This document shows positions 1,303 through 42,736 of a DNA stretch of 64,000 nucleotides, one piece after another. The position numbers and the translations under genes were made by a program. The stretch is from assembly GCA_963666365.2 (NCBI GenBank), contig CAXXNF010000001.1:544001-608000 (forward strand), in the 5' to 3' direction. The stretch is from Syntrophales bacterium (GTDB lineage: Bacteria; Desulfobacterota; Syntrophia; Syntrophales; UBA2210). Under the pieces are notes generated by a model that did no database searches, had not been told where the DNA came from, and saw only the letters and a program-made list of their open reading frames with translations. Position 1 is the stretch's first letter, and each line of letters starts with the position of its first letter.

Positions 1303-2883
1303 TCACTCCGCCGCTCTGTTATTCTTCGTCCAATACCACTCAAGGGTATCTCCTGCATGGCGTGTTTTTACAAGTCCCTGATCAATGAACCATGCCACTG
1401 CCGCATTTACTATGCCTTCTTCACAGCCTGTGGTCTCGCACAGCCTCTGCGCCAATATATCCGAGGCCCGCATGCCGTCAGAGGCGGCAATGACGCCTTC
1501 GCGCTCAATTAAATTTTTCGACAGTATTTCATGCACCAGCTTGAGCCGGTACTGCCCCGCGACACGAAGATTGTCTTCCTCGGAATTTGTACCGTCCCAA
1601 TACCCCCTTTCCATGGAGTCCCATTTTTTGTTTATCACCGTGTTGAAGCGTTCGATCATCTCAATCGCCCTCTCCGGACTCAGTTTCGATGTTCTTGTAA
1701 CCGGACTGTTCGCATCGTAACGGGACCAGTCAAAGGTCAGAATTTCAAGGTCATATTTTTCCCTTTTCTCCATCACGGTAGTGCCGGGAAAGGGGGCAAG
1801 GAAATGAAACCCATAATCGATGCCCAACCCTTCCGCGAAGGTCATGGTTTCTTCAAGCGTTTCCGGAGATTCGCCGGGTAGTCCCACTACAAAAGAGCCG
1901 TGGGGGTGTATTCCGGCTTCTTTGCATAAATGAACGGCCTGTCGGGCCTGGTCGAGCGTTGCCGCCTTCTTGATCCTTTTGAGCATATCCGCATTCCCGG
2001 TTTCAAGACCGAAGCTGATCCATTGGCATCCCGCTTTTTGCATCATCGCCAATGTTTCGCTGTCCACCGTATTGACGCGGGCAAAGGCGGTCCATATAAA
2101 GTGCAGCCCCCTTCTTTCTATTTCCCCGCAGACCTGACGAACCTTTTCTTTGTTTGCGGTGAAAAGATCGTCGGCGATATTGATCATTGTGAATCCATAC
2201 GACAAGATTTGTTCAATTTCTTCAACAATATAGGACGCACTGCGCTGCCGCGGCTTTTTTCCCACCATGCGTCTTCCCAGGCAGAAGATGCATGAGTAAG
2301 GGCAGCCGCGGCCGGTAATCATGCTCGGAGGGTAACCGAGTGCCCTGTAACGAGAAAGGGGAAGAAGATGTCGTGCGGGAAGGGGAAGTGAATCGAGATC
2401 TTCGATGAAGGGACGCGGTTCGGTCACCACCACCTGTCCGTTTTCCCGATAGGCAATGCCCCCTATGTTTCTCCAGAGAGAACGATTTTTAATCACCGGC
2501 ACAAGATCCGCAATAGTTGCTTCACCTTCTCCAATGACAATCATATCGATGGATGGGTACTGCTGCAGGGTGTTGGTCACATCGAAAGAAACGTGGGGAC
2601 CCCCCATAATGGTGATAATTTCAGGGTTATGTCCTTTTACGGCGGCAATGATGTCAGCGGCGCGCGGAAAGTTGAGCGTCACCGAATTTGCCCCCACAAC
2701 ATCGGGCTGCAACGTATCCAGCTGCACCTTCAAATGCTCGGGACTGTAGGGATTGATTACGTAGTCAATGATTTCGACCTCTGCACCGGCGGCCTCAAAA
2801 GCGGCTGCCACGTATGACAGGCCGAGCGGCACGGTGGGAATCTCCTCCAAGGGATAGGGGGACGCAATAAGCGCAACTTTCAT
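1303..2883 (-). CDS. cobalamin-binding radical SAM protein
   Basis: PLGLSYVAA, GGPHVS B12-binding region and GRGCPYSCIFC CxxxCxxC motif. Confidence 0.9.
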   Translation of the reverse strand: MKVALIASPYPLEEIPTVPLGLSYVAAAFEAAGAEVEIIDYVINPYSPEHLKVQLDTLQPDVVGANSVTLNFPRAADIIAAVKGHNPEIITIMGGPHVSFDVTNTLQQYPSIDMIVIGEGEATIADLVPVIKNRSLWRNIGGIAYRENGQVVVTEPRPFIEDLDSLPLPARHLLPLSRYRALGYPPSMITGRGCPYSCIFCLGRRMVGKKPRQRSASYIVEEIEQILSYGFTMINIADDLFTANKEKVRQVCGEIERRGLHFIWTAFARVNTVDSETLAMMQKAGCQWISFGLETGNADMLKRIKKAATLDQARQAVHLCKEAGIHPHGSFVVGLPGESPETLEETMTFAEGLGIDYGFHFLAPFPGTTVMEKREKYDLEILTFDWSRYDANSPVTRTSKLSPERAIEMIERFNTVINKKWDSMERGYWDGTNSEEDNLRVAGQYRLKLVHEILSKNLIEREGVIAASDGMRASDILAQRLCETTGCEEGIVNAAVAWFIDQGLVKTRHAGDTLEWYWTKNNRAAE

Positions 2884-5077: not shown

Positions 5078-5622
5078 TCCATCATGAGGCGCACTGCCAC
5101 ATTAAGCACGCTGCTTTATTTTTATTATGACTCTTTTTGAAGCCTTAGCACTATTTCGTCGTCGCTTTCTTTACGGATTGAGGGCAGTACAACCGGAATA
5201 CCGTATTTCACGCATACCCCAGAAGGCCCTTATGCCACCGTGCCATCACTTCCGCTCTTGTCATCCATGCCTCTATTTCATGTAAAGAGGCGTTCTTTTT
5301 GTGTTGAAGTGGCCGGCAGCCTTACTTATACTATCGGTTCAATTCTGAAATTCTTTAACGCAAAAATAGTGCCACACAATCTAGCCCGGTCTTTTATGAG
5401 CAAACATTTGTATATATTTACTTATTTTACTTTTCAGCGCCCTTTCACTCCACATCTTCGAGGCGCCGCCCCGTCCGTCTATTGACATGGTATGCCGCCT
5501 TTCGATACAATGCAGCCTGTAAACGGACATCGATATCCATCGTCTGTTTTCACTGCCTGTTGATAGACGGACAAAAAACCGAAGGAACCACAGACTGCTT
5601 CGTGCTTACAGGAAGTTCTCCT

Positions 5623-8600
5623 ATGCTCATGGATGCACCCGGCCACATACTCGGCATCGACATCGGCTCTGTTGCCCTCGCTGCGGCAGAAATCGACGCA
5701 CATAAACAGGTTATAGGCTCCACCTATGTCTTTCATCATGGTGATATAAGGGGGGCACTGCACACCGCGCTTTCCTCATTCGACCTCTCGAAGATAGGGG
5801 CTATCGCCGCCACATCGTCGACACCGAAGTTTCTGCGAACTACCCGAATCTACGACAATCCTGTTGCCGTCATCGCTGCATGCCGGCATTTTTTTCCCCG
5901 TATCGGATCAATCCTGCTGGTGGGGGGCGAGCGTTTCGGCGTCATACATTTCGATGAGGAGGGAAATTATAAAAAATTCAGGACCAACAGCTCCTGTGCG
6001 GCAGGAACCGGAAGTTTTCTGGACCAGCAGGCGCGCCGGCTTAATCTTGAAGGCGCAGAGGAACTGGCCCGCATTGCCCTGAAACACGAAGGCGGAATTC
6101 CTAAAATCGCCTCGCGGTGCGCAGTCTTCGCCAAAACCGATCTGGTGCACGCCCAGCAGGAGGGCTATTCGCTTGCGGCCATCTGTGATGGTCTCTGCCG
6201 GGGATTGGCAAAAAATATCGTTGATACCCTGTTCGAAAAGGAAAGCTCCCTTTCACCCATTATATTCGCCGGAGGTGTGGCAAAGAACAGGGCCGTAGTA
6301 CACCATATTTCGTCGATACTGGGGGAAGAGATCATCACCGATGAGAAGGCGCCCCTCTTCGGCGCCCTGGGCGCCGCCTTTTCTCTGGTCGATGAACCTG
6401 CCCCCGCGGGTGCGTCGATGCAGCTTCGAACTATTGAGGACGTTCTAATACGAAAATCAGGTACAATCTCTTACGCACACCCTCCACTGGAGCTTACGCT
6501 TTCCTCGTACCCCGAATTCACCAGCGAAGAGAGTTATCACTATCAGGACGAAAATTCCCCGCGTGCCTGCCCCATAGAAGTGGACGTCTATGCCCGTACC
6601 GAACCGGGAACACACATGGAGGCATACCTGGGAGTGGATATCGGCTCCACAAGCACGAAGGCAATAGTGTATCTTACGAATGAAACCGTGCTGGCAGCCT
6701 TTTATACCAGGACTGCGGGACGACCGATTGACGCCGTCCAGGAGATCATGTCGGCCATTGCCGATATGATGGAACGAAGAAAGGTGCATCTCACCTTCCT
6801 TGGCGCCGGCACCACCGGTTCAGGCAGAAAATTCATAGGGAACATAATCGGCGCCGATCTCATCATCGACGAGATTACCGCCCATGCCCGCGCCGCCGTG
6901 CACATCAGACCCGATGCCGATACAATCATTGAAATCGGCGGACAGGATTCAAAGTTCACTACCCTCGGCGACGGCATGGTCACCTTCTCAACTATGAATA
7001 CGGTCTGTGCCGCCGGTACGGGCAGTTTTATCGAGGAGCAGGCACAAAAACTCAACTGTCCCCTTTCCGAGTATGCAGACAGGGCGGAACACCGGAAATC
7101 CCCCGTCGCAAGCGACCGATGTACCGTCTTCATGGAACGTGACCTGAATTATTATCTTGGCGAAGGATATTCGCGGGATGAAGTACTGGCGTCGGTTCTT
7201 CATTCGATCAGAGAAAATTATCTTACCAAGGTGGCCACAGAGGGAATGATTGGTGACTGCATTCTCTTTCAGGGCGCCACTGCAAAAAACCGGGCACTGG
7301 TCGCCGCATTTGAAGCCCGTCTGAAAAAGCCGATCCATGTGTCCCGCTACTGCCATGTGACCGGGGCCCTCGGCGTCGCACTGATGCTTCAGGAAGAACG
7401 CATCCGCACCACATCCTTTCGTGGAATGTCTCTCATTGGTACAACCATCCCCGTAAGATCCGAGGTATGTGACCTGTGTACCAATCACTGTAAGATCACC
7501 ATTGCCGAGATTGAGGGAGCCCATGTGGCCTACGGATTTCTCTGCGGAAGAGACTACGAAACCAAGCGGTATGTCGCCAGGAATCGTTCAGGATTCGATC
7601 TTATGAAAGCCCGCAAAAAAATAACCTCGGTGACGCCCCCCGATACCCTGAGGGACGACATCGTAATAGGCATTCCCGCGGCACTTTACCTCAAGGACGA
7701 TCTTCCTTTCTGGAAAAAATTTTTCGCAGAGCTTTCCATAAGAACCATTACCAGCGAAGAGTACCGTACCGCCGTGATCGACGGCAAGAGATTGGCGGGG
7801 GCCGAATTTTGCGCACCCCTGGAGGCAATGCACGGCCATGTTGATTACCTGCTGGGGAAGGCCGATTTCGTCTTTCTTCCCTTTTATATGGAACAGAAAA
7901 CGGACGATCGCGCCGTTCGCCGCCACTACTGTTACTATACACAGTTCGCCCCCACACTGGCGGCGGCCATGGCGGACCACAGGCGGGACCGACTGCTTAT
8001 GCCCCTCGTGCACTATCTCTACAGCGGGCTTCATACCAAAGGGGAACTTTACCGGACACTCAAGCCCCTGATGAAAGGACCGCCCAGCTACTTCGAGATA
8101 TCGTCGGCCTATGAAAAGGCCACTGTGTTCAAACAATCATGCCTTGAAAAATTCAGGAAACGTTACCGGGAAGAAACTGCCGGCAAGAATGAAATGCATG
8201 TGGTGTTTCTGGGAAGACCCTATACGATGCTGGACGAATCGATGAACAAAAGGATTCCTGCAGTTTTTGAATCACTGGGAATAAAAGCGTTCTATCAGGA
8301 TATGCTCTCCTCCGGTGATAATATCCTCTCGCCGATCGCACCGCTGCTTCGTGAATTTCACTGGCATTATGCGGCACAGATTCTTGAGGCCTCCCGCATT
8401 GTCGCCGCATCGAAGGACGCCTATCCGGTGTTTGTCACATCCTTTCGATGCTCCCCTGATTCCTTTGTCATTGAATATTTCAAAAAGATCATGGAATCTC
8501 ACGGAAAACCCTATCTGATCCTGCAACTCGACGAACATGATTCGAATGTGGGCTATGAAACACGAATTGAAGCTGCCGTCAGATCCTTCAGAAATCACCA

Positions 8601-9879
8601 TGCAAAAGCGAATATCGCAGGTCATATTCATTACCGCCCCGCACTCATCCCGTCGTCCATCACCAGACTTAACGGAAAAACACTGATCTTTCCCAATTGG
8701 GATGCCCTTTCACTCAAACTGCTCATGGTATGCCTTCGACAGAGGGGAATCGATGCCAGGCTTCTGGAAGAAAGCGAAGGTGCGATTCAGGAAAGCCTTC
8801 ATTTTAACACGGGCCAATGTATTCCGCTCAATATCATCGCCATGGAATTCATCGACTATGTAAGGCGCCACAATCTCGATCCCTGCAACACGGCGCTCTG
8901 GATGATGGACTCGGTCATCCCCTGCAATCTTCGCCTGTTTCGACATCATATCAAAAACCTCTGTGCCTCATACGGCAATGGGATGGAACAGGCGGCAGTC
9001 TATGCCGGAGGACTTTCAATGGCGGATCTGTCACTGAAAGTTCCCCTGGATGCATATTTTGCCTTCATGTTCGGGGGACTTTTGAGGAAAATGGGATGCA
9101 GGATCAGACCCTATGAAACGATAAAAGGCGCCACCGATAGGGTAATCGATGAGAGTATTGCCGTTTTTTCCGATGCCTTTCGTGGAAAATGTTCTAAAGA
9201 AGAAGCCGTTGCAGAAGTGGTGTCGCTATTCGAGGCCATAGAAACGAGCAATGGCAACAGACCCCGCCCCAAGGTTGCCATCTTCGGCGATCTTTATGCC
9301 CGCGACAATGAGGTGATGAATCAACACCTGATTCACTTCATAGAGGAACAGGGAGGGGAAGTCATCACCACTCCGTACAGTTCCTATGTCAAGATGATCA
9401 CCGGTCCCTATTTCAGAAAATGGTTCTTTGAAGGGCGCCTTCTCGAAGTCCTCTCTTCAGGGGGACTGATCACCCTCATCAAGAGGCTGGAAGACCGCTA
9501 TCTACAGTATTTCAATCGCATTCTGCCGCATGCGGAACCGGCCTACGACGAACCTTCCCAGCGCATTCTCTCGAAGTACCACATGAGAATAGAACACACG
9601 GGAGAATCGATGGATAACATCCTCAAAATATTCTACCTCCTCAGGCATTATCCCGACCTTTCGCTTTTCGTCCAGACAAGTCCCGCCTTCTGTTGTCCTT
9701 CTCTTGTGACGGAGGCAATGGCGAACCGGATCGAAGCAGAGACGGTCATCCCCATTGTGTCCATAACCTACGATGGAACGGGAGGCAACAAAAACAATGC
9801 AATCACCCCCTATTTGACCTTTCCCCGTCGCCTTCCCGCAAAGCGCGATGACCTGCGCAGGGCCAAGGCTGTGTCGTAA
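5623..9879 (+). CDS. CoA-substrate-specific enzyme activase fused to 2-hydroxyacyl-CoA dehydratase-related domains
   Basis: Two ASKHA ATPase repeats (GIDIGS/GVDIGSTSTK, CAAGTGSF, CAVF/CTVF); start uncertain. Confidence 0.85.
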   Translation: MLMDAPGHILGIDIGSVALAAAEIDAHKQVIGSTYVFHHGDIRGALHTALSSFDLSKIGAIAATSSTPKFLRTTRIYDNPVAVIAACRHFFPRIGSILLVGGERFGVIHFDEEGNYKKFRTNSSCAAGTGSFLDQQARRLNLEGAEELARIALKHEGGIPKIASRCAVFAKTDLVHAQQEGYSLAAICDGLCRGLAKNIVDTLFEKESSLSPIIFAGGVAKNRAVVHHISSILGEEIITDEKAPLFGALGAAFSLVDEPAPAGASMQLRTIEDVLIRKSGTISYAHPPLELTLSSYPEFTSEESYHYQDENSPRACPIEVDVYARTEPGTHMEAYLGVDIGSTSTKAIVYLTNETVLAAFYTRTAGRPIDAVQEIMSAIADMMERRKVHLTFLGAGTTGSGRKFIGNIIGADLIIDEITAHARAAVHIRPDADTIIEIGGQDSKFTTLGDGMVTFSTMNTVCAAGTGSFIEEQAQKLNCPLSEYADRAEHRKSPVASDRCTVFMERDLNYYLGEGYSRDEVLASVLHSIRENYLTKVATEGMIGDCILFQGATAKNRALVAAFEARLKKPIHVSRYCHVTGALGVALMLQEERIRTTSFRGMSLIGTTIPVRSEVCDLCTNHCKITIAEIEGAHVAYGFLCGRDYETKRYVARNRSGFDLMKARKKITSVTPPDTLRDDIVIGIPAALYLKDDLPFWKKFFAELSIRTITSEEYRTAVIDGKRLAGAEFCAPLEAMHGHVDYLLGKADFVFLPFYMEQKTDDRAVRRHYCYYTQFAPTLAAAMADHRRDRLLMPLVHYLYSGLHTKGELYRTLKPLMKGPPSYFEISSAYEKATVFKQSCLEKFRKRYREETAGKNEMHVVFLGRPYTMLDESMNKRIPAVFESLGIKAFYQDMLSSGDNILSPIAPLLREFHWHYAAQILEASRIVAASKDAYPVFVTSFRCSPDSFVIEYFKKIMESHGKPYLILQLDEHDSNVGYETRIEAAVRSFRNHHAKANIAGHIHYRPALIPSSITRLNGKTLIFPNWDALSLKLLMVCLRQRGIDARLLEESEGAIQESLHFNTGQCIPLNIIAMEFIDYVRRHNLDPCNTALWMMDSVIPCNLRLFRHHIKNLCASYGNGMEQAAVYAGGLSMADLSLKVPLDAYFAFMFGGLLRKMGCRIRPYETIKGATDRVIDESIAVFSDAFRGKCSKEEAVAEVVSLFEAIETSNGNRPRPKVAIFGDLYARDNEVMNQHLIHFIEEQGGEVITTPYSSYVKMITGPYFRKWFFEGRLLEVLSSGGLITLIKRLEDRYLQYFNRILPHAEPAYDEPSQRILSKYHMRIEHTGESMDNILKIFYLLRHYPDLSLFVQTSPAFCCPSLVTEAMANRIEAETVIPIVSITYDGTGGNKNNAITPYLTFPRRLPAKRDDLRRAKAVS

Positions 9880-9881
9880 CA

Positions 9882-9908
9882 GTTTGGTCTGTTTGGTCTG
9901 TTTGGTCT
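9882..9908. repeat. (GTTTGGTCT)x3 tandem repeat next to the prophage insertion site
   Basis: Three exact 9-bp copies read from the sequence. Confidence 0.9.
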
Positions 9909-9915
9909 GCCTGTC

Positions 9916-9988
9916 TGACCGACTAAATCTATTCTGCGACAAAATGAAATGTAATCGGCGACAAGGAAATGAAATCGGCGACAAAATA
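9916..9988 (+). repeat. prophage end (Mu attR-equivalent) with three tandem ~20-bp transposase-binding-like sites
   Basis: AAATCTATTCTGCGACAAAAT, GAAATGTAATCGGCGACAAGG, GAAATGAAATCGGCGACAAAA. Confidence 0.8.
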
Positions 9989-10085
9989 TATACGCTTAAT
10001 TCAGGGCGCAAAAATCCTGTCGGTTCAGAACTTGATGTTTGTAAAGGCTCGAACCAGCAGGGGAATGGTCTTTATGTGTTAATGT

Positions 10086-10865
10086 CTATGCCGTATTCGG
10101 CTTGTAATTCATAATCAGCAGTTCATTGGCAGCCTTTCTTTTGTCGCCGCCAGCCGCAGTGTAGGTCGTGGCCACCTCCTCGATGTGAAAATCTTTGTAC
10201 AAATCCCGGATTAATTCAGTGTCGTTGATAGACATAATAAATTGACCTTGAATGATGGCCAGGATATCTCGCAGCACTTTGAAGTCTTTGTGGCTAAATA
10301 TGCCGTCTCCATAGTAGTTTTCAAACCCATGATAAGGCGGATCGATATAAAAAAACGTGTGCGGCTTGTCGAACCTCTTGATTAGGTCAGCATACTGTCT
10401 GTTCTCAATGTAGACGCGTGAAAGACGCAAGTGGGCCGCCGAGAGATCCTCTTCAATCCTAAGCAAATTCAGGCTTGGCGGTCTTGTGGCGCTGATGTTG
10501 AGCGAGGGGCTCTTGATGCGGGCGGCATAGCCGGTTCGGAGAAGGTAATAAAACCTCACTGCCCGTTGGATATCTGTGAGCGATTCCGGGGTTTCCGCCT
10601 TAAAACGTTCGAACTCCTCCCTTGCTACAAGGATCCATTTAAGATATCGAATAAATTCTTCCAGGTGGTTCTTCACAACCCGGTAAAGCGTTACCAGGTC
10701 AGTGTTAATGTCGTTGATGATCTCCACCTTCGATTCTTCCTTCCTGAACAAAAGCCAAGCGGCACCCGCGAAAACTTCACAGTAACAGGTATGTTCCGGT
10801 ATTTTCTCAATTATCCTTTTTGTCAGTAATGATTTTCCACCCATGTACGATAAAAAGCTGTTCAT
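10086..10865 (-). CDS. D12-class N6-adenine DNA methyltransferase (in the mom position)
   Basis: YMGGKS, EVFAGAA, NDIN and IDPPY motifs. Confidence 0.92.
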   Translation of the reverse strand: MNSFLSYMGGKSLLTKRIIEKIPEHTCYCEVFAGAAWLLFRKEESKVEIINDINTDLVTLYRVVKNHLEEFIRYLKWILVAREEFERFKAETPESLTDIQRAVRFYYLLRTGYAARIKSPSLNISATRPPSLNLLRIEEDLSAAHLRLSRVYIENRQYADLIKRFDKPHTFFYIDPPYHGFENYYGDGIFSHKDFKVLRDILAIIQGQFIMSINDTELIRDLYKDFHIEEVATTYTAAGGDKRKAANELLIMNYKPNTA

Positions 10866-10882
10866 AATATCTCCCTCAGATC

Positions 10883-10911
10883 TTGTGCTTGAGGGACGAC
10901 TCTGCTACAAA
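10883..10911 (+). promoter_or_regulatory. candidate sigma70 promoter (extended -10) for the small RNA
   Basis: TTGTGC (10883-10888), 17 bp, TACAAA (10906-10911) preceded by TGc. Confidence 0.5.
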
Positions 10912-10930
10912 GCCCGGTTTATCTAGTACA

Positions 10931-11006
10931 GCGGATGGTAGCGGGTCATCCCGTCCTGTCTATACACAGGGTCTGGGGAGCGTCACCTCCCTGGAATACT
11001 GTCCGC
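10931..11006 (+). ncRNA. candidate structured small RNA (four-way junction) antisense to the methylase leader
   Basis: Closing stem 10931-10940/10997-11006 encloses three hairpins; G-U pairs favour the + strand; followed by a U-rich tract. Confidence 0.55.
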
Positions 11007-11137
11007 GTTTTTTTCTTTCTTTTTTTCTATTAGGTTGCTATATTCGGCTTCACTGGACCATCGGGACGTGCGGGTGGCGCTTATACCGATACAGCATCCT
11101 GTTATCCGATTCATGGCCTCCTCTTCTGCCGCCCGCA

Positions 11138-12502
11138 TTACCTCTTGTATGATTTTTCCCGCTTTTTCTTTATTTTCTTTACCGATACACCATCCGGCCT
11201 CGGGATGATCCGTTTTTTTGCGCGGACGGGCCCGCCCGCGGGCATGAATCTCCAGTCGACGCCGGTCGGCAGCCCGACGGTGATTTCTTTGTCCGGCCAG
11301 GCTGCCTCGGCTTCGTCGTCTATTTCGTATTCCTTGCGAATCACCTCGGCCAGGTCGCGGGCATTACCGGTGCGCTGCGTCATTTCGCGCAAGGTTTTCT
11401 CGTCCGGGTTGACGACGATCAGTTCGTAGCGGTCTGTGTTGTACGCCCCGAAGGGGTGCGGCACGGCTTCCGGGTCGCCGCCGTTGCCGAAACAGGGGTG
11501 ATCCGGGGCCTGGTATACGGCGGCCAGCGCGCCGGTTTCACGGTCTCTCAGGGCGAATATCCAGTATACCTCGCCCGATGAGGTGACGTAGGTCTGCTGT
11601 GCGTAGGACGCAAGGGTCATGTCGGACCCGGACGAAGTTTCGCAGTCCTGCCGCAGGTAGATGCGCGTCAGATAGGTGGATCCGATGTCCTCGGCCTCTA
11701 CATGGCGCGCCGTCATGGTTTTCGACACCCAGACCGGGGAGCTTCCGCCCGCCGCCTGTTTGAATTGCGGTTGAAAGCCGTAGGCGCCGCCGGGCAGTGT
11801 CAGATGGGCGCTCTCGCTGCGGGTATCGGTCCCATTCCAGGGGCCGTCGGATATGGACACGCTGCCGGAGCTGGTCTTGAGCGCGCCCTGCGTGATGGCG
11901 TCGTCGATGTCGATGCCGTCAAAATAGGCGCTTCCGGCTACGTCGGTGTCGGTATAGCCGCCGATGAGGATGATTTTGAGGTACCGCGCCGTAGCGGGGA
12001 CGGTGAGCCGTGAGGTGTAGCCCGTGGCCGTGGTGGGGTTCGACGTGCTTGTGTAGAGGTCCTCGCTCGATATTTCCACTTTCGCCGCCGTGTAGTAGGT
12101 GATCCGGACAATGTTTTTCATGCCCGCGGCGGAGGCCCAGGTGATGTAGCGCAGCACATAATCAAGGTTCGGCGATATCTCCAGGTAGCCGCTTGTAAGG
12201 CTGCCGCCGCCGTTTCCCGCGCCGCCCGGATGGGTGAATTTATAGGCCTGTGCGCCGTGCGCCGGGCTTGTGGTTTCTATTGCGCCGGCGCCGCCTGAAT
12301 AAAGCGACTGCGTCCAGTTGTCGGGCACGCCGTCGCTGTCGCTGTCGATCTCGAAGGACCCGTTGGGGACGCCCGCCCCGGCGGATTGTGACATGACCAG
12401 GCTGTAGAGGTAATCGAAATTATCCTTTATTTTTCTAAAGAGAGATTGTTTCCCCGGTTTGCCCGCCGTGGTTTCCGTTGTGGTCAATGCGTTGTATGAC
12501 AT
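11138..12502 (-). CDS. tail fibre / receptor-binding protein with a carbohydrate-binding-like domain
   Basis: Last gene of the tail operon; PNGSFE..DGVPDNW CBM-like start; Gly/Ser/Thr-rich. Confidence 0.6.
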   Translation of the reverse strand: MSYNALTTTETTAGKPGKQSLFRKIKDNFDYLYSLVMSQSAGAGVPNGSFEIDSDSDGVPDNWTQSLYSGGAGAIETTSPAHGAQAYKFTHPGGAGNGGGSLTSGYLEISPNLDYVLRYITWASAAGMKNIVRITYYTAAKVEISSEDLYTSTSNPTTATGYTSRLTVPATARYLKIILIGGYTDTDVAGSAYFDGIDIDDAITQGALKTSSGSVSISDGPWNGTDTRSESAHLTLPGGAYGFQPQFKQAAGGSSPVWVSKTMTARHVEAEDIGSTYLTRIYLRQDCETSSGSDMTLASYAQQTYVTSSGEVYWIFALRDRETGALAAVYQAPDHPCFGNGGDPEAVPHPFGAYNTDRYELIVVNPDEKTLREMTQRTGNARDLAEVIRKEYEIDDEAEAAWPDKEITVGLPTGVDWRFMPAGGPVRAKKRIIPRPDGVSVKKIKKKREKSYKR

Positions 12503-12511
12503 GGTATGCTC

Positions 12512-14284
12512 CTAATAAATATCGTATCCATCGGTTTCATCCGGCATGTCGCCGGAGTCTGCGGTAATGTAGCCGTATTCCCTGTCGTCTTCGTCGGCGT
12601 CGTCGTAGTCCGGGGCGTCGTCCGGGGCGATGATGAATATTTTTCGCTTCGGCAGTTCCATGAGGGACAGGGTGATGACGCCCTTTTGTTCCTCCCTTTT
12701 CACGACTTGATACCGGCCCAGGGTGACGGGGTTGCCTTCTCTGTCCTCCAGCTCGTCGGTGGTCAGGCGCACATAGCCGCCGGTCCTTATTTCGCTGTCT
12801 TTGATTTCCACGGCTACTTTGACGATGGGGTGGGCTTCCCGCTGGTTTATGACGCGCCGTGCCGCCAGATCGCCGATAAAGCCGGTCATTTCCTCTTCTG
12901 AATGCTCGCCTGTTCTCATCCACCGGCAATAGAGGATCTTTTCCGCTTCCTCGCCGTAGGCGTTCTCTCCTTCGCTTTCCGCGTCGACGGCAATGTCAAT
13001 GCGCTTGTAGTTCGTTTCGTCGTCCACGTCCTCGATGACGCTTCGCCGGTCCCAGTAGACGACGACGCGGGAGATCCTGCTGTCCGGGTTGAGATCCGCC
13101 GCCCCGGAGGCGTGGACGTTATTCGCCTCGTCGGTCAGCGCGGTATATGCCCGATCGCCGCGGTTGGGGGTGTTCCGGGCGATGGTGATTTTGAGATCCT
13201 CTGCTACCCAGGTCTTGCAGTCCAGTAGGTCGATCAATTCAAAATAGAGCTCGGAGAGCTTCGTCGGTTCGCTGATCATCGCCGATATATCGATTTCGCC
13301 GCCGGGCCAGTCCTTTGCGTCGTCGAAGGCGTCCGTATCGATATACTCGGTGTCGATCTCTGCATCGGCCTGGAGCATTTCCGTGTTTAGGATGTCGAGA
13401 GGATTGTCCCAGTCGTAATACCTGCATGGCTGGACTTTGTCGTTTTCGTCGTGGCTGTCCGCCTCGGTGCCAAACGCGCCCCGCGTGAGACTGGACAGGA
13501 CGCCCGTGGTGTCGTTTTTCGCGCCGTAATACATGATCTCGTCGCCGATACGGACATAGCCGGTCTCGTCGAGATCGGACGCGTCAGAGACGGTGAGGGC
13601 GGTGTCGTCGGCGTCTATGGCGGCTACCAGCTTTAAATCGACTTTTGCCGGGACGTAGATTTTTGACAGGTCTTTCAGGAGGTCCACGGCCTCGACGGAG
13701 ACTTTTCCCTTCCCCAGGGTGATCGTGTCGATTTTCATGTAATAGCGCTGCTGAAAATTGCCCTCGGCCATGCCGAGAAAGCCCTCGTATATTTCCAGGG
13801 GACGGCCTTTGTAGTGCGGATTGCGGGCCAGGAGCTTTTTCCAGAATGTTCCCTGGACGCCGGACCGCTCATCAACGTAGGGATCGACGCCGATGTCCCC
13901 GTCCTCTTCGTCGGCAAATTCGACGGTGACGCGGGCGTTGACGGTCAGGCTGTCCTTGATCTCCGTGGCCAAGGGCTTGATGGCAAGCACGTAGGGGCGC
14001 TCGCCCTCGCTGAAGGGCAGTGGAGTGTTAGTGGAGGTGAATTTGTACTCCTTGGTACCGCGGGAGTAGTGGTCTTTGTCCTTGCAGGTGCGGTAGGTGT
14101 TGTAGCAGGGCGCGCCTGTGGCGGCGCAGGGGGCCTCGCCGAAGGTGTGCCCGCAGTAATCGAGCGTCAGCACGACAAGGGACACCGGCGTCCGGGACAG
14201 GCTGTCCCGGTAGTAGTCATATTCGATGACTCCCCAGGGGATTGCGCCCCAGGGGAAGTCGCCCCAGGCCGATGTGGTCATCAA
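12512..14284 (-). CDS. tail tip / hub protein
   Basis: 590 aa, downstream of the TMP and Dit-like genes; Cys-rich N-terminus (CGHTFG..C..C.NTY.TC). Confidence 0.55.
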   Translation of the reverse strand: MMTTSAWGDFPWGAIPWGVIEYDYYRDSLSRTPVSLVVLTLDYCGHTFGEAPCAATGAPCYNTYRTCKDKDHYSRGTKEYKFTSTNTPLPFSEGERPYVLAIKPLATEIKDSLTVNARVTVEFADEEDGDIGVDPYVDERSGVQGTFWKKLLARNPHYKGRPLEIYEGFLGMAEGNFQQRYYMKIDTITLGKGKVSVEAVDLLKDLSKIYVPAKVDLKLVAAIDADDTALTVSDASDLDETGYVRIGDEIMYYGAKNDTTGVLSSLTRGAFGTEADSHDENDKVQPCRYYDWDNPLDILNTEMLQADAEIDTEYIDTDAFDDAKDWPGGEIDISAMISEPTKLSELYFELIDLLDCKTWVAEDLKITIARNTPNRGDRAYTALTDEANNVHASGAADLNPDSRISRVVVYWDRRSVIEDVDDETNYKRIDIAVDAESEGENAYGEEAEKILYCRWMRTGEHSEEEMTGFIGDLAARRVINQREAHPIVKVAVEIKDSEIRTGGYVRLTTDELEDREGNPVTLGRYQVVKREEQKGVITLSLMELPKRKIFIIAPDDAPDYDDADEDDREYGYITADSGDMPDETDGYDIY

Positions 14285-36460: not shown

Positions 36461-36960
36461 TTGATGACCTCCAGCCTGAATCGGTCGTTGTTGACCACAC
36501 GGTACAGCGCTTCCTTGCTTCCGCATCCGTCCTCCAGTGTGCGAAAACCTACCCGTGTAATGTATCCCTGTGACAGCAGCTTTTTTGTTACCTTGTCCGT
36601 GTAGCTTCGCGTGGCGCCGGTCATCTTTTTGACGTCGGATGCGGAAAAGGGTTCGTGAAAGCTGATCAGGCGCATTGCCTTGCAGATCTTCTGTTTCTGG
36701 GCCGCCTCCGGCCCGGATTTCTGTTGTTCCCAGGAGCTGTTGTACTGATATTTTTGTCGCCTTTTTTGTTTCATTGAGGTCTTTTCAATTTCGCCTCGGC
36801 TTCTAAAAATGGCGAATGAATCGAAAACTTTTTGCCGTTCTTCCGGTGTCCGGGCGCCCAGGGCCGTGCACACATCCGCCATTGTAAAAGCTGTCCGCCG
36901 GGCACGTGCCCAGGCCCGTATGCGGGACGCCAGCCCCGTGTTAGTTGCCTTCGACGACAT
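36457..36960 (-). CDS. HTH-containing hypothetical protein
   Basis: Basic, two wHTH-like halves, directly after the MuB-like gene. Confidence 0.55.
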   Translation of the reverse strand: MSSKATNTGLASRIRAWARARRTAFTMADVCTALGARTPEERQKVFDSFAIFRSRGEIEKTSMKQKRRQKYQYNSSWEQQKSGPEAAQKQKICKAMRLISFHEPFSASDVKKMTGATRSYTDKVTKKLLSQGYITRVGFRTLEDGCGSKEALYRVVNNDRFRLEVIK

Positions 36961-37630
36961 CGTTCACCAGCTCCAGAGTAATTTCCGATATGTCCGACGC
37001 CTTGACGGCCCGTTCGATTGCGATTGCCGCAGTCAGGATGTTTCGCCAGTCGCCGTTGGAACGCCGGAGTAGTGCCGCCGCCGGTTCCGGTGAAAGCGCG
37101 GTTCCCAGTGATTGCCTGAAGAAAAAGACCACGTCGGCCTGGGTAACGGGATTGAATTCCAGGCGTCGTCTGATCCGGCTTGAAATTCTTCGGCGGGACG
37201 CCACCTTGCCTTTGAGTTCATCCTCGCCTATCAAAAGGACGGGGCAGTCGTAACGCTCATTGAGGTTGCGCAGCATCTCTAGTATCTGCATGGCCAGAAG
37301 ATCCGCTTCGTCGATGATAATCAGCCGTCGCATCCGCGCCATCTCTTCGCTTATGATGGAAAGGCAGGCGTCGCTTCGGGTCGGCCTCATCCCGGCAAGC
37401 TCGAAGGTTATCTCCCTCAACACCATTGTGGGCGTCCGTGTGTTCAATGGCGGGATATACGCCGCGCTTTCGTTCGCTGCGTATTTCTGGGCCGCAAAAG
37501 TTTTTCCTCGGCCCGCCTTGCCGGTGACCATCGCCAGCGACGGCCCTATCCGCCCTCCCGGACCGACCAGTTCGTCGCAGATCGCGCTGAACTGCGTTAC
37601 GTTTTCGGTCTGTACGAATTCGTTTTTCAT
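36941..37630 (-). CDS. MuB-like AAA transposition ATPase
   Basis: GKAGRGKT Walker A, IIDEAD Walker B; adjacent to the transposase. Confidence 0.9.
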   Translation of the reverse strand: MKNEFVQTENVTQFSAICDELVGPGGRIGPSLAMVTGKAGRGKTFAAQKYAANESAAYIPPLNTRTPTMVLREITFELAGMRPTRSDACLSIISEEMARMRRLIIIDEADLLAMQILEMLRNLNERYDCPVLLIGEDELKGKVASRRRISSRIRRRLEFNPVTQADVVFFFRQSLGTALSPEPAAALLRRSNGDWRNILTAAIAIERAVKASDISEITLELVNDVVEGN

Positions 37631-37660: not shown

Positions 37661-39889
37661 CTACATCCCTCCGCACTCCCTTACGGTATTCCAGTATTCG
37701 CGCTGCTCATTGCTCATAGCGGCTTCATAGGCAGACAGCCACTTATCGTCGGATTCGTTCAAGGTTCCTCCGGCGATTTCGTAATCCAGACACCACTTAA
37801 ACCGGGCGAATTCGTCTATGAAGTAGTTCGGGCGTTTGGGCAGCGGGCGTTTGGTCTTCGGCGGCAGATTCCCCAGGGCCTCCAGTTTCCGAACCTCCTT
37901 TTCCAGTTCCTCCGGCGTTCGCGTCCGGAAGAGATCCTTCTCCGCCTCGGTGCGTTCGTGCTTCTCCAGGGCATACCGGGCGGCGTCCTTCTCGATCTGG
38001 GGAACTTCCGAGTAGTGACGGAAGTCGGGGATGCCCGCCGTGATCTTTTTGAATTCCTCGGCGAAACGTTTCCTTCGCGACCGCTTTTCCATTATTTTCA
38101 AGGCCGCCAGGTCCCGGTCCTTCATGGATGAGTAGACTACGGGCATGGCCGTGCAGAGGTACTGACCCTTCGAGAAGACTAAAAGACCCTCCGGCGCCAT
38201 CGGGTTATAGCGGACGTCCACCTTTTCCCGATGAAGAGGGATAAGGGCGTCATGCTCGTACCAGTCCCACAGGAACGGAACCCGCCCCAGTTTGACCGTG
38301 CGCTTTTTTCGTTCCAGGAATATGAGATCCAGGGCCGACTCGCTGATTTCCTTCGGCCGCCAGCCATCTTCGTAGCAGGACCGCAGGCAGTCGTAAGGCG
38401 TGACGGCCTTCGGCTTCGGCTTCCAGGACCACTCCTTGTGGACTCCCTTATGGGGTTTTTGCCGGTTGTACCAGTCCAGGGCGCGGTAAAGCATGACGGT
38501 GAACTCGGAAAAGAGGAGAAGCTTCCCCTGGGCCGCCAGGAGCTTCAGTTCCTCCTGGTCCACGTCGTTTTCGTGAATGTCGCCGCCCAGGTCTTTCACA
38601 TAACCCGGAATCCGAAAGCGGCTCCGCAGGATCCCCTCAATGACGTCGAAGGTCCCCTCGATCATCTTCGCTTTCGCGTTCTTGACAATGGCTTTTTTGT
38701 GGGTACCCGGCATGATCATGACGGGATTTACATCTTCCGGTTCCACATCGAGGATGTCTGCGGGAATGTCGGTAGTGGTCTCCCAGGAGAGCCCCAGTGC
38801 CCGCATATCCGAAAGAATCCCCATAAGATACTTGCTTATTTCGGGCTTGCCGTTATCGGTGTAGATGCTTCCAAAGGCACCGTAAATCGAACAGCCTATC
38901 CGAAGGGCCAGGCCGATAAGCCAGGCGTCGTATTTTTTGTCCACGGCGCCGCCGTAGATGATGCGTGTCCGCAGATCCTGCCAGAAGTAGCCTTCCGGTC
39001 GGAATATCTCGCCCGTTTCGTCATCGACCACCCAGAAGTCGAAGCGGTGCTGGTCACCCACGAGAAGCTCGAAGGGGCAAAGATCCGCATAAGTCCGAAG
39101 AACCGGAGGCAAAAGGTTGTCGAGCGCCCGCATGCCCCCTTTCTGAAGGGCGCGAAGCTGGGGCGTCGCCTTTTTATCCAGCCACCAGAGGGCCGATTCG
39201 TAACCGCCGATAGTCCAGCCCCGCCGGTGGGCCTCGATGACAAGGGCGTCATAGTAAAGGTTTTTCAGGTCAATTTTTCTGTGGGCACGCTTCAGGCAGA
39301 GGCCGACCCAGAAGTCGACGGCCTCGGGCGTCCATTTACGCGAGGTGCCCCGCGTCGATTTCGTGTGGACGATCCCGTAGATTCCCTTCTTTTCGTACTT
39401 TTTCATCCATCGATACACGGATTGAAAGGTAACGCCGTAGCGAAGCGCCACCGATTCGACCCAGGACCGCTTTTTCCAGCCCTTCGGTACTGCCTGGGCT
39501 TCCCGTATGATTTCCAGAATGCGCCTGACTCGCGGGTCCCGAAGATCCTTTTCCGAAACGGCCGTTTCCGCTGTCCATGAATCGAAGGGCTTTTTCGACA
39601 CGGCCAGAGCATCGGTAAATGATTGCGTGGGAATATTCCGCGCGGCAGCCGCAATGGCCGCCTCGGGGGCCAGGGAGGGCAAGAGAGCCGGAGAGATCCC
39701 TTTTGTTTCCACATAGGTCTTTTGAATGTCGCCGGGCAGTGAGAGCAGCGGGTATAGCCGATGCGTCCCTCCCTTTCCGCTGCCGTTTTTGCATGTCCAG
39801 GATTCCTTGCCTGCGCGCTTGGTAACGGCCTGTTTCGTCACATTGAGAAGGCCCGCGATATCGTTTACTGTAAGGAGAATGTCGCTCAT
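37661..39889 (-). CDS. MuA-like DDE transposase
   Basis: N-terminal Mu HTH (W....G.GG...LY.L.SLP), GDQH, YTDNG, AK.IEG.F catalytic motifs. Confidence 0.92.
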   Translation of the reverse strand: MSDILLTVNDIAGLLNVTKQAVTKRAGKESWTCKNGSGKGGTHRLYPLLSLPGDIQKTYVETKGISPALLPSLAPEAAIAAAARNIPTQSFTDALAVSKKPFDSWTAETAVSEKDLRDPRVRRILEIIREAQAVPKGWKKRSWVESVALRYGVTFQSVYRWMKKYEKKGIYGIVHTKSTRGTSRKWTPEAVDFWVGLCLKRAHRKIDLKNLYYDALVIEAHRRGWTIGGYESALWWLDKKATPQLRALQKGGMRALDNLLPPVLRTYADLCPFELLVGDQHRFDFWVVDDETGEIFRPEGYFWQDLRTRIIYGGAVDKKYDAWLIGLALRIGCSIYGAFGSIYTDNGKPEISKYLMGILSDMRALGLSWETTTDIPADILDVEPEDVNPVMIMPGTHKKAIVKNAKAKMIEGTFDVIEGILRSRFRIPGYVKDLGGDIHENDVDQEELKLLAAQGKLLLFSEFTVMLYRALDWYNRQKPHKGVHKEWSWKPKPKAVTPYDCLRSCYEDGWRPKEISESALDLIFLERKKRTVKLGRVPFLWDWYEHDALIPLHREKVDVRYNPMAPEGLLVFSKGQYLCTAMPVVYSSMKDRDLAALKIMEKRSRRKRFAEEFKKITAGIPDFRHYSEVPQIEKDAARYALEKHERTEAEKDLFRTRTPEELEKEVRKLEALGNLPPKTKRPLPKRPNYFIDEFARFKWCLDYEIAGGTLNESDDKWLSAYEAAMSNEQREYWNTVRECGGM

Positions 39890-40917: not shown

Positions 40918-41205
40918 TCAGGCCGCCTCTATGGGCATTGCCATCGGACGCCCGGTTTTTTTTGCGCCGCCGCCGTAGAGATAGACCGACGGCCAGACGA
41001 CGCGGACATCCTTTTTTATATATTGCGCAATGGCCCGCCTGATGCGGTCGGATGTTGCACCGTCGATCACGCGGGAAACGGCAGACGGCCCGACACCCAG
41101 CTCTCTGGCAATCGCCGCCTGCGCGCCGTGGCCGCCGAAGGATCGAAAAAGCGCCTCGCGGATTTCAAGAGGCGTCATGTCGCGTGCTTTTATGTGCTCT
41201 TTCAT
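40918..41205 (-). CDS. ner: Ner/Cro-like HTH regulator
   Basis: QAAIARELGV..SAVSRVI...IA..I......VWPS.Y. Confidence 0.75.
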   Translation of the reverse strand: MKEHIKARDMTPLEIREALFRSFGGHGAQAAIARELGVGPSAVSRVIDGATSDRIRRAIAQYIKKDVRVVWPSVYLYGGGAKKTGRPMAMPIEAA

Positions 41206-41228
41206 GGGTTGCCTTTCGGAGTGTTGAA

Positions 41229-41772: not shown

Positions 41773-41815
41773 GCAATACCCTCCTTTTTTTGAATGTCTA
41801 AATTGAGTGAATTTG

Positions 41816-41985: not shown

Positions 41986-42004
41986 AGAACAAACGGGTGA
42001 TTTT

Positions 42005-42712: not shown

Positions 42713-42736
42713 ACAGTTTGCCTTGGAGTATGACCT

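What the first reader, a model, noticed from the sequence alone, without database searches (positions are those of the whole stretch)
10883..11030. tRNA-sized four-way-junction RNA with its own promoter, antisense to the methylase leader
Seen: closing stem GCGGATGGTA/TACTGTCCGC (10931-10940/10997-11006) encloses three hairpins: CGGG-TCAT-CCCG, CCTGT-CTATAC-ACAGG and CTGGGGAG-CGTCAC-CTCCCTGG. Several G-U pairs work only on the + strand. A TTGTGC-17-TACAAA promoter lies upstream and a long U-tract downstream. It lacks a T-loop consensus and CCA, so it is not a tRNA. It occupies the position where Mu has com and Pmom. Inference: a lysogeny-expressed antisense or regulatory RNA, architecturally reminiscent of P1 C4 and P4 CI cloverleaf RNAs, that silences the methylase or acts in trans.
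Basis: partly seen in the sequence, partly recalled or inferred. Interest (0 to 1): 0.75.

Follow-up and report, generated by a model that had tools for sequence, protein, structure and literature searches.

The report
Conserved prophage sRNA beside methylase gene
A Mu-like prophage carries an uncatalogued, strongly conserved small RNA gene that folds into a four-armed junction and lies back-to-back with the phage's DNA methylase gene, most likely to control how that enzyme is made.

Summary
Window 10931-11006 (+) folds into a four-way junction (-40.8 kcal/mol, z -4.6). The same element occurs in 76 distinct versions from uncultivated phages and prophages.

- **Structure:** 97.5% of pair cells are standard pairs, and 13 of 29 pairs show compensatory changes.
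- **Strand:** 438 G·U cells against 5 A·C cells, and consensus energy -36.2 against -6.0 kcal/mol. The RNA is therefore read opposite to the methylase.
- **Gene signals:** a conserved TTGATT-17-TGnTAtA promoter box lies 14-22 nt upstream. A U-rich tail follows the closing stem.
- **Known families:** nothing in Rfam matches, including C4 and D12-methyl.

This is a real, new sRNA family. It sits in the gap between late genes and a DNA-modification gene. That gene is a D12 methylase in 68 of 75 relatives and another methylase family in others.

In many relatives, hairpin 3 of the sRNA copies the ribosome-binding region of the methylase. The mRNA-sense mirror of the sRNA can therefore lock that site (cognate -20.1 against non-cognate -16.4 kcal/mol; 0 of 20,000 permutations as good).

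My best reading is a cis-antisense gate on methylase expression. Whether it turns the gene up or down is unresolved, and no expression data exist.

The parts
10883..10888 (+). -35-like box TTGTGC of the sRNA promoter. It lies in the loop of the methylase anti-SD/SD hairpin.
   Evidence: Sequence. The family consensus is TTGATT, with T73 T62 G59 A46 T49 T57 of 75.
10903..10911 (+). Extended -10-like box TGC-TACAAA, 17 nt after the -35 box.
   Evidence: TGC-TA is present in 71 of 75 relatives, followed by T/C and A in 68 and 65 of 75. The last two positions are not conserved.
10918..10930 (+). Inferred 5' leader of the sRNA. The start site is inferred at about 10918, give or take 2, and has not been measured.
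   Evidence: Inference from the -10 position. The distance from the -10 box to the stem is 14-22 nt in 61 of 75 relatives.
10931..11006 (+). Four-way junction. The closing stem is 10931-10940/10997-11006, with hairpin 1 at 10941-10954, hairpin 2 at 10955-10970 and hairpin 3 at 10972-10995.
   Evidence: Single-sequence fold. RNAalifold and pair counts on 76 sequences. Covariance model R1 scores 86.4 bits here.
11007..11030 (+). U-rich tail, which with the closing stem forms an intrinsic-terminator-like 3' end.
   Evidence: In 61 of 75 relatives at least 5 of the 9 nt after the stem are T, against a background T of 26%.
10972..10995 (-). Mirror of hairpin 3 in the methylase-sense transcript, a candidate upstream anti-RBS segment. 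The match is weak in this window.
   Evidence: Cognate versus non-cognate duplex test. The window's own duplex is -14.7 kcal/mol and ranks 24 of 42.
10866..10905 (-). Methylase leader. A local hairpin pairs 10890-10896 (anti-SD) with 10872-10878 (SD UGAGGGA), and the start codon is at 10865-10863.
   Evidence: In the window the SD pairs with this local partner in both modelled states.
10086..10865 (-). [quoted passage not shown]
   Evidence: PF02086, E 5e-34. phrog_56.
11138..12502 (-). Upstream late gene of 454 aa with no family match, on the same strand as the methylase. It follows a tail-fibre-like gene at 12512-14284.

Best explanation
SHOWN BY COMPARISON (about 0.9 confidence): 10883-11030 (+) is a self-contained gene for an sRNA of roughly 95-110 nt. 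It has a sigma-70-type promoter with an extended -10, a short leader, a compact four-way junction and a U-rich terminator-like tail. It is read opposite to the D12 methylase gene.

INFERRED MECHANISM (the confidence figure below applies to this part): the methylase has no room for a promoter of its own. It is reached by read-through from the late (tail) operon on the - strand, so the late transcript carries the mirror image of the sRNA just upstream of the methylase leader. The sRNA acts in cis-antisense on that intercistronic stretch.

In many relatives the mirror of hairpin 3 is complementary to the methylase Shine-Dalgarno sequence and spacer. It can therefore lock the ribosome-binding site from a distance, on top of a weaker local anti-SD hairpin. 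The sRNA carries the same sequence as the ribosome-binding region, so it competes with that region for the lock. Pairing of the sRNA, and probably RNase III cutting of the long duplex, would remove the strong lock and uncouple the methylase cistron from the structural genes.

The sRNA promoter also faces incoming late transcription and overlaps the methylase leader DNA, so it should damp read-through.

Net effect: methylase output is set separately from that of the neighbouring late genes. I favour relief or processing over pure silencing, at about 55:45.
For: Structure and strand:
- On 76 distinct homologues, 97.5% of pair cells are standard pairs, against 90.6% in shuffles (0 of 500 reach it). 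There are 13 pairs and 141 cells with changes on both sides.
- There are 438 G·U against 5 A·C cells. Sixteen positions alternate between Watson-Crick and G·U, and none alternate with A·C.
- RNAalifold gives -36.19 kcal/mol on this strand against -5.97 on the methylase strand.

Gene signals:
- Promoter box TTGATT-17-TGC-TAtA.
- U-rich tail in 61 of 75 relatives.

Intra-operon position:
- An open frame on the methylase strand ends just upstream of the element in 65 of 76 loci.
- The scan finds no - strand terminator in 9800-12000.

Link to DNA-modification genes:
- A D12 methylase starts 56-110 nt past the element in 66 of the 68 relatives (of 75) that have one downstream.
- L110 has a DAM-like-phage1+GNAT gene instead, and L131 has a near-identical ORF (not itself scanned). 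L105 has an N6_N4 methylase.
- A divergent subgroup lies next to an N6_N4 methylase in 7 of 8 loci.

Link to the ribosome-binding region:
- The longest shared word between the sRNA and its own methylase start region averages 7.3 nt, against 5.7 for non-cognate pairs. There are clade-specific words of 10-12 nt.
- The mirror-to-start-region duplex is -20.05 kcal/mol for cognate pairs against -16.35 for non-cognate pairs (0 of 20,000 permutations as good). There is no such advantage for the sRNA-sense strand, for 80 nt further upstream, or for 80 nt inside the ORF.
- In folds of the methylase-sense RNA, the SD pairs with the mirror element in 30 of 42 representatives. It moves to the weaker local partner in 33 of 42 when the element is masked.
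Against: - There is no expression evidence of any kind. The start site, the 3' end and the read-through transcript are all inferred.
- In the window itself the complementarity is weak. The duplex is -14.7 kcal/mol and ranks 24 of 42, there is no loop-to-spacer identity, and the SD pairs locally in both modelled states.
- Identity beyond the SD reaches 3 nt or more in only 15 of 58 distinct combinations.
- Masking the element raises the mean probability that the SD is unpaired only from 0.106 to 0.183.
- Extended inverted repeats could also arise neutrally, by template switching between two SD-like repeats.
- The last position of the -10 box is not conserved as T. The window's promoter fails the generic scan.
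- The RNA has no conserved single-stranded stretch and its helices are highly conserved, which fits a protein-binding RNA as well.
- In subgroup 1b the methylase lies on the other side of the sRNA and the downstream gene is terS-like.
- The sequences are related, so the permutation counts overstate independence. Most homologues were retrieved with a 19-nt word from the element, which inflates the apparent conservation of hairpin 1 and the closing stem.
Confidence: 0.38

Rival explanations
1. Pure silencer. The sRNA and its face-to-face promoter keep the methylase off in the lysogen. They would do so by transcriptional interference and by antisense pairing followed by degradation of any read-through transcript. 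Late transcription simply overwhelms this block, and the similarity to the ribosome-binding region is a by-product of an independent cis lock.
For: - The same structural, strand, promoter and position evidence applies.
- The promoter overlaps the methylase leader.
- Two SD-sequestering pairings suggest that expression is meant to be kept low.
Against: - This reading does not explain why the anti-RBS segment lies inside the very stretch that the sRNA covers. That co-location occurs in 34 of 42 representatives.
- Pairing of the sRNA would free the ribosome-binding site rather than block it.
- No expression data exist.
Confidence: 0.25
2. A trans-acting or protein-binding structured RNA whose job is not control of the neighbouring gene. 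Examples are a partner or inhibitor of DNA methyltransferases, a decoy against a host defence, or a regulator of host or phage targets elsewhere. Under this reading it is merely linked to the anti-restriction (methylase) locus.
For: - The four-way junction is compact, with almost no unpaired junction bases.
- A tandem U·G/G·U in the closing stem is nearly invariant, in 71 and 72 of 76 sequences.
- The loops vary in sequence. In divergent members hairpin 1 becomes GCGC-UUCG-GCGC, so no conserved seed exists.
- The element lies beside four different methylase families and on either side of them.
Against: - The sRNA sequence co-varies with the neighbour's start region.
- The promoter consistently overlaps the neighbour's start region, in the main group, in the subgroup and in class 2.
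- No candidate protein partner was identified.
Confidence: 0.2
3. A terminator or insulator only. The junction plus U tract would stop + strand transcription that enters the prophage end from the host gene at 5482-9879, and no separate sRNA would be made.
For: - A GC-rich closing stem is followed by a U tract.
- The host gene on the + strand points into the prophage end.
Against: - A conserved promoter box lies 14-22 nt upstream in 61 of 75 relatives.
- A three-hairpin junction with covariation in every arm is far more than a terminator needs.
- The same element occurs inside operons far from prophage ends in subgroup 1b.
Confidence: 0.06
4. A cis-regulatory leader or riboswitch on the methylase strand, for example a D12-methyl-like or SAM-sensing element.
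For: - It lies upstream of a SAM-dependent methylase.
- SAM-I riboswitches are four-way junctions (recalled, not tested beyond Rfam).
Against: - On the methylase strand only 77.8% of cells pair, and the G·U to A·C ratio is 5 to 438.
- The consensus energy on that strand is -5.97 kcal/mol.
- No Rfam family matches on either strand.
- D12-methyl (RF02950) gives no match even at E up to 1 in five related phage records.
Confidence: 0.02

Closest known systems
Cis-encoded antisense sRNAs inside operons: GadY (gadX-gadW) and SraG (rpsO-pnp)
   Same: Each is a small RNA gene on the opposite strand of an intercistronic gap with its own promoter. Each acts on the polycistronic transcript. For SraG the abstract was seen in the listing. 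GadY is recalled, and only term hits were seen.
   Different: There is no sequence or structural relation. This RNA is a closed four-way junction. It is phage-borne, tied to DNA-modification genes, and in many relatives copies the downstream ribosome-binding region.
Phage Mu Com protein and the com-mom operon, including com plus substitute methylases in FluMu and Pnm1
   Same: The genomic place is the same: directly before the DNA-modification gene at the right end of a Mu-like phage. The task is the same: translational gating of a gene whose ribosome-binding site is structurally sequestered. The regulatory module also combines with non-homologous modification genes (PMC6483171 abstract in the listing; PMC3299994 passages).
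   Different: Com is a zinc-finger protein. Here no Com-like ORF is present, and an RNA gene on the opposite strand occupies the place.
P1/P7 C4 and P4 CI antisense RNAs (Rfam RF01695)
   Same: They are phage-encoded, tRNA-sized, multi-hairpin regulatory RNAs (recalled).
   Different: There is no match to RF01695 in the window or the genome. No evidence exists for processing from a longer transcript or for loop-to-target sites. The gene context also differs.
P22 sar and lambda OOP antisense RNAs (recalled)
   Same: They are short phage antisense RNAs, made from promoters that face a phage operon and ending at an intrinsic terminator.
   Different: Sar covers the ribosome-binding site of ant, and OOP covers a 3' coding end. 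This RNA covers neither, and it has a four-way junction.
D12-methyl RNA motif (Rfam RF02950)
   Same: It is a structured RNA candidate found next to D12 methylase genes in environmental sequence (recalled; the family's presence in the library is shown).
   Different: It has 64 model positions and gives no match here or in five related phage records at E up to 1. The supplement that describes it could not be read.

Membership tests
C4 antisense RNA (RF01695) | Scores at or above the Rfam gathering score of 45 bits against the family covariance model. | tested here: not met
   There is no match at gathering score in the window. None is listed at E up to 10 in 10700-11300. None is found in the whole genome at E up to 0.001; in that search the control genomes also gave nothing.
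D12-methyl motif (RF02950) | Scores at or above 57 bits against the family model. | tested here: not met
   There is no match in the window, in the genome, or in five phage records holding class 1 or class 2 elements at E up to 1.
tRNA or tRNA-like | A cloverleaf with D, anticodon and T arms that tRNA finders recognise. | tested here: not met
   ARAGORN finds 0 genes in the window. Rfam tRNA does not match here, although it matched real tRNAs in three related loci.
Self-cleaving four-way-junction ribozymes and SAM-I-type riboswitches | A match to the Rfam models, plus internal loops or junction bases that carry the active or binding site. | tested here: not met
   No such family is listed at E up to 10. 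The junction has 0-2 unpaired bases and its helices lack internal loops.
Cis-encoded antisense sRNA (functional class) | Own promoter and terminator on the strand opposite to a transcribed region. | tested here: met
   This was tested by comparison only. The promoter box is conserved in 71-73 of 75 relatives at its core positions. A U tail is present in 61 of 75. Structure is selected on this strand only.
Cis-encoded antisense sRNA (functional class) | Both the sRNA and the overlapping sense transcript exist in the cell. | not testable with these tools
   No RNA run holds the stretch. The sense transcript is inferred from same-strand flanking genes in 65 of 76 loci and from the absence of a predicted - strand terminator.
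Anti-antisense (RBS-unlocking) sRNA, as in DsrA-rpoS (recalled) | The sRNA pairs with the segment that otherwise sequesters the ribosome-binding site. | tested here: inconclusive
   The cognate mirror-to-start-region duplex is stronger than non-cognate ones, at -20.05 against -16.35 kcal/mol (0 of 20,000 permutations). However, it is weak in the window, and masking the element opens the SD only from 0.106 to 0.183.

The most novel reading that the evidence does not exclude
A portable RNA module travels with non-homologous phage DNA-modification genes and works as an RNA counterpart of the Mu Com protein. Hairpin 3 of the sRNA is a sequence mimic of the neighbour's ribosome-binding region. Three RNA segments would then compete: the ribosome-binding site, a cis anti-RBS in the late polycistronic mRNA, and the sRNA. 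The sRNA would decide whether the modification enzyme is translated.
Probability: 0.3. Interest if true: 0.8.

Novelty: new variant of a known kind. Interest (0 to 1): 0.62.

Why it matters
Phage DNA methylases and related modification enzymes are the phage's main shield against host restriction. How their expression is timed is known in detail only for Mu, through the Com protein.

This work finds a well-supported, uncatalogued RNA family with 76 distinct versions. It occurs in 13 of 151 sampled genomes of one bacterial order. It occupies the Com position and recurs beside at least four methylase families. A second, differently folded RNA has the same layout.

If the RBS-mimic mechanism holds, it would be a new way to set the output of one cistron inside a highly transcribed operon, and a compact, transferable regulatory part. 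Even if only the silencer reading is right, Rfam and phage annotation pipelines lack this family.

Tried and rejected
**Rfam**
- At gathering score on the whole window there were 0 matches.
- At E up to 10 on 10700-11300 there were four chance-level matches, none on the + strand junction.
- On 20 related loci only 3 tRNAs were found.
- Two accession numbers guessed from memory were wrong families: RF03074 is Rhodo-rpoB and RF02953 is DUF1874.

**Expression**
- No RNA holder is listed for window 10000-13000. The three runs that hold it are not on record as RNA.

**Literature**
- 'D12-methyl' occurs in 0 papers of the library.
- The supplement of PMC5737381, which should describe that motif, cannot be read, and its main text does not mention it.
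- Three further term searches found nothing describing such an RNA.

**Other look-ups**
- Three look-ups of earlier findings returned nothing.
- GenBank phages give no blastn match to 10880-11035.

**Ideas tested and dropped**
- The conserved box TRTAGCAGRG as a general late-promoter motif: 9 matches in the window against 6.4 expected, with no pattern.
- A Com-like ORF in the gap: no Pfam match for the 51-aa or 89-aa frames.
- The local anti-SD hairpin as a covarying structure. RNAalifold keeps only 3 pairs. The SD is at least three-quarters paired in 40 of 62 short leaders. The cognate advantage is weak, with 83 of 5000 permutations as good.
- Mimicry of the ribosome-binding region in the class 2 RNA. 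Shared words are 6-8 nt, against a control maximum of 6-8, so this is not distinguishable from chance.
- A methylase promoter with TACCAT as its -10 inside the junction (one search lists TAGACA-16-TACCAT). The -35 falls in a variable arm, and TACCAT becomes TACTCC in divergent members.

**Chance matches**
- Seven exact matches of the 19-nt word lack the rest of the element. My own estimate, not a tool result, is that about nine such matches are expected by chance in 596 billion bases.

Full report
**1. Context**

The window holds a Mu-like transposable prophage on the - strand, from about 10.1 to 41 kb.
- A MuA-type transposase lies at 37661-39889 and a MuB-like ATPase at 36941-37630.
- A tail-fibre-like gene lies at 12512-14284.
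- The last gene is a D12-class N6-adenine DNA methyltransferase at 10086-10865.

The finding lies in the 272-nt gap between that methylase and the preceding late gene (11138-12502). Both genes are on the - strand.

In viral contigs that encode related methylases, the contig ends within 2.3 kb beyond the methylase in 37 of 42 loci. This count is my reading of the table. The methylase is therefore the end gene, in the place where Mu has com-mom.

Passages of PMC3299994 state that other Mu-like prophages keep com there but replace mom with unrelated methyltransferases.

**2. The observation**

- The + strand folds into exactly the described four-way junction. Its energy is -40.8 kcal/mol against a shuffle mean of -26.2 (z -4.62; 0 of 200 shuffles as good).
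- The - strand folds less well, at -31.6 kcal/mol and z -3.34.
- There is no tRNA.
- The generic promoter scan does not call the + strand TTGTGC-17-TACAAA site, and it finds no - strand terminator between 9800 and 12000.

**3. Relatives**

A search with the methylase protein gave 42 viral loci. Blastn of the gap showed that only the junction part is conserved.

A 19-nt word from the element then found 69 viral and 28 genomic stretches. The genomic records are mostly titled Syntrophus, Smithella, Syntrophorhabdus or 'Deltaproteobacteria' MAGs.
- Dereplication left 83 distinct cores.
- I dropped 7 that lack the rest of the element (L070, L115, L120, L123, L126, L129, L135). By my own estimate that number is what chance would give.
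- This leaves 76 distinct elements, including the window's.

Retrieval by this word inflates the apparent invariance of hairpin 1 and the closing stem.
- The four class-1 elements that lack the exact word, found through the methylase-anchored loci (L008, L017, L025, L033), show compensatory changes there too, as does the more divergent L031.
- Divergent members found with the covariance model do the same. For example, hairpin 1 becomes GCGC-UUCG-GCGC.

Model R1 matches 13 of 151 sampled genomes of the window's order, one of them five times. It matches 2 of 151 genomes sampled across the phylum. Both counts include the window's genome, which has one full copy. No GenBank phage record matches.

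**4. It is a structured RNA, and the strand is the + strand**

RNAalifold on the 76 sequences returns the same four-way junction, with 29 pairs.

| Measure | Observed | Control |
|---|---|---|
| Cells forming standard pairs | 97.5% | 90.6 ± 0.3% in column shuffles (0 of 500 reach it) |
| Cells paired when partners are slid | – | 42-53% |
| Pairs with changes on both sides | 13 | 7.7 in shuffles |
| Cells with changes on both sides | 141 | 38.4 in shuffles |

The strand test is clear-cut.
- Of 2204 cells, 1709 are Watson-Crick, 438 are G·U and 5 are A·C.
- Sixteen pair positions alternate between Watson-Crick and G·U. None alternates with A·C.
- Read on the methylase strand, only 77.8% of cells would pair.
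- With each strand folded on its own, the consensus energy is -36.19 against -5.97 kcal/mol. The mean single-sequence energy is -45.2 against -30.6 kcal/mol.

This rules out a leader or riboswitch on the methylase strand. It also argues against a double-stranded DNA signal.

**5. It looks like a complete gene**

*Promoter.* Upstream on the + strand there is a conserved box TTGATT, then 17 nt, then TGC-TAtA.
- The -35 positions are conserved in 73, 62, 59, 46, 49 and 57 of 75 relatives.
- TGC-TA is present in 71 of 75.
- One sequence, L067, lacks the box.
- The box ends 14-22 nt before the closing stem in 61 of 75 relatives, 9 nt before it in 1, and 33-49 nt before it in 13. From the sequences listed, several of these 13 appear to hold an extra hairpin in the linker; this was read by eye and not counted or folded.
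- The last two -10 positions are not conserved, so the promoter may need its extended -10 or a factor.

*3' end.* Directly after the closing stem, at least 5 of 9 nt are T in 61 of 75 relatives, against 26% T further on. Together with the GC-rich stem base this resembles an intrinsic terminator.

Expression itself could not be checked.

**6. Not a known family**

- Rfam 15 gives nothing for the window or for 20 related loci apart from three tRNAs.
- C4 (RF01695) and D12-methyl (RF02950, 64 positions) are in the library and do not match.
- Four full-text searches found no description.
- The supplement of the paper that introduced D12-methyl could not be read.

**7. What it is linked to**

In the methylase orientation, an open frame on the same strand ends just before the element in 65 of 76 loci. 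In 42 of these 65 it ends within about 17 nt (distances are approximate). The element is therefore intercistronic.

Downstream genes in the 75 relatives:
- A D12 methylase follows in 68, and in 66 of those 68 its start lies 56-110 nt past the element.
- Two loci have too little DNA to tell.
- L110 has a DAM-like-phage1 + GNAT-phage-like protein. L131 has a near-identical 435-aa ORF, which was not itself scanned.
- L105 has an 85-aa CxxC ORF followed by an N6_N4 methylase.
- L083 and L052 have genes without family matches.

A divergent subgroup, 1b (L150-L157), lies between two genes.
- An N6_N4 methylase gene is convergent with the sRNA 3' end. It is present in 7 of 8 loci, and the eighth lacks DNA on that side.
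- A terS-like gene has its start region covered by the sRNA -35 box.

One further hit, L149, lies beside a host aspartyl-tRNA synthetase gene.

The recurring neighbour is thus a DNA-modification gene from at least four families. The recurring layout is an sRNA promoter that overlaps the start region of the gene lying downstream in the mRNA sense.

**8. Link to translation initiation**

Hairpin 3 of the sRNA is itself an SD/anti-SD hairpin (GGGGAG-loop-CUCCC). In many relatives its 5' arm and loop repeat, in the same sense, the methylase SD and spacer. The shared words are specific to each clade:

| Locus | Shared word |
|---|---|
| L010 | UGGGGAGGUCGC |
| L092 | GGGAGGUUGGU |
| L048 | GGGAGGUUCGA |
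| L012 | GGAGGGCUAAC |
| L110, L131 | GGGAGGUG(C), although their gene is different |

The ninth base for L110 and L131 is read by eye.

It follows that the mirror of the sRNA in the methylase-sense transcript is complementary to the start region. Forty-two representatives were chosen so that their start regions are less than 80% alike.

| Test | Cognate | Non-cognate | Permutations as good |
|---|---|---|---|
| Mirror element vs start region | -20.05 kcal/mol | -16.35 kcal/mol | 0 of 20,000 |
| sRNA-sense strand vs start region | -16.59 | -16.33 | not run |
| 80 nt further upstream | -12.59 | -13.38 | 4919 of 5000 |
| 80 nt inside the ORF | -14.20 | -14.15 | 2209 of 5000 |
| Local leader | -13.26 | -12.50 | 83 of 5000 |

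The paired site is the mirror of hairpin 3 in 34 of 42 representatives.

Folding the methylase-sense RNA gives the following.
- The SD pairs with the mirror element in 30 of 42 representatives, with the local leader in 7, and is unpaired in 4.
- With the element masked, as if covered by the sRNA, the SD moves to the weaker local partner in 33 of 42.
- Its mean probability of being unpaired rises only from 0.106 to 0.183.

The limits of this evidence are as follows.
- Identity beyond GGAG reaches 3 nt or more in only 15 of 58 distinct combinations, against 153 of 3306 non-cognate pairs.
- The window itself is a weak case. Its duplex is -14.7 kcal/mol and ranks 24 of 42. There is no loop-to-spacer identity. 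Its SD is held by the local 7-bp hairpin, 10872-10878 with 10890-10896.
- The sequences are related.
- Template-switch mutation between SD-like inverted repeats could create such matches without selection.

**9. Mechanism**

*Shown by comparison:* an RNA gene on the + strand, its fold, its intra-operon position, its association with modification genes, and a statistical tie to the neighbour's start region.

*Inferred:* the methylase is translated from late read-through transcripts that contain the mirror of the sRNA. The sRNA pairs with that mirror. This removes a long-range lock on the ribosome-binding site, or leads to cleavage of the duplex. The facing promoter also interferes with read-through.

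I cannot fix the sign of regulation. The reason is that the lock lies exactly in the stretch the sRNA covers.

A protein-binding or trans role remains a serious rival, because the RNA has no conserved single-stranded seed and its helices are very conserved.

**10. Comparison with what is known**

- It works most like cis-encoded intra-operon antisense sRNAs (GadY and SraG; partly recalled).
- It fills the role that the Com protein has in Mu (PMC6483171 abstract; PMC3299994 passages).
- It is not a member of C4/CI, D12-methyl, tRNA or any Rfam ribozyme or riboswitch family.

**11. Verdict**

This is a real and new sRNA family: a new variant of a known kind. The structural and strand evidence is strong, the functional link to DNA-modification genes is plausible but unproven, and there are no expression data. 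Interest 0.62.

Noticed in passing
L009, L011, L022, L024, L026, L032, L034-L044, about 2330-2490 (- strand of each locus): A second, differently folded RNA of about 110 nt sits in the same place and on the same anti-methylase strand, before more distant D12 methylases (40-48% identity). It has a TTGATT-17-TGn-TAGGCT box and a U tail. Fifteen of the 17 loci were aligned. The consensus energy is -34.2 against -2.56 kcal/mol on the other strand, with 80 G·U against 11 A·C cells of 420. No Rfam match was found.
   Followed up: partly
L150-L157 (for example L150:1495-1620): Subgroup 1b of the junction RNA lies between a 475-aa N6_N4 methylase gene and a terS-like gene (phrog_57). The start region of the terS-like gene reads AUGUAAAUG, a start-stop-start arrangement, and is covered by the sRNA's TTTACA box. 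One genome (G081) holds five copies.
   Followed up: partly
L110:1573-2877 (also L131): The gene behind the sRNA module in L110 is a fusion of DAM-like-phage1 (PF22555) and a phage GNAT-like domain (PF22559). This is a candidate DNA hypermodification enzyme in the mom position. L131 carries a near-identical ORF that was not scanned.
   Followed up: no
L105:1168-1422 (-): An 85-aa ORF with two CxxC pairs lies between the sRNA module and an N6_N4 methylase. It may be a Com-like zinc-finger regulator. Pfam gives only sub-threshold hits (E 0.05 and 0.06).
   Followed up: partly
window 11071-11129: A 59-nt stretch of the gap beyond the sRNA tail matches another place in the same genome (G000:C1:496326-496384) at 86% identity. 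Model R1 finds no junction RNA there.
   Followed up: no
window 10001-11000 and 41001-48000: The methylase cassette has 47% G+C, against 53-65% in the prophage body, which suggests a separately acquired module. A low-GC island (37-45% G+C) lies just beyond the prophage's left end.
   Followed up: no
L005:3538-3607, L028:3505-3591, L036:3610-3682: tRNA genes lie a few hundred bases beyond the methylase in three related viral contigs, on the opposite strand.
   Followed up: no
window 10878-10883: A GATC site (AGATCT) abuts the sRNA -35 box in the window. It is not conserved in the family consensus (CAGATTGATT), so a methylation-sensitive promoter is not a general feature.
   Followed up: partly
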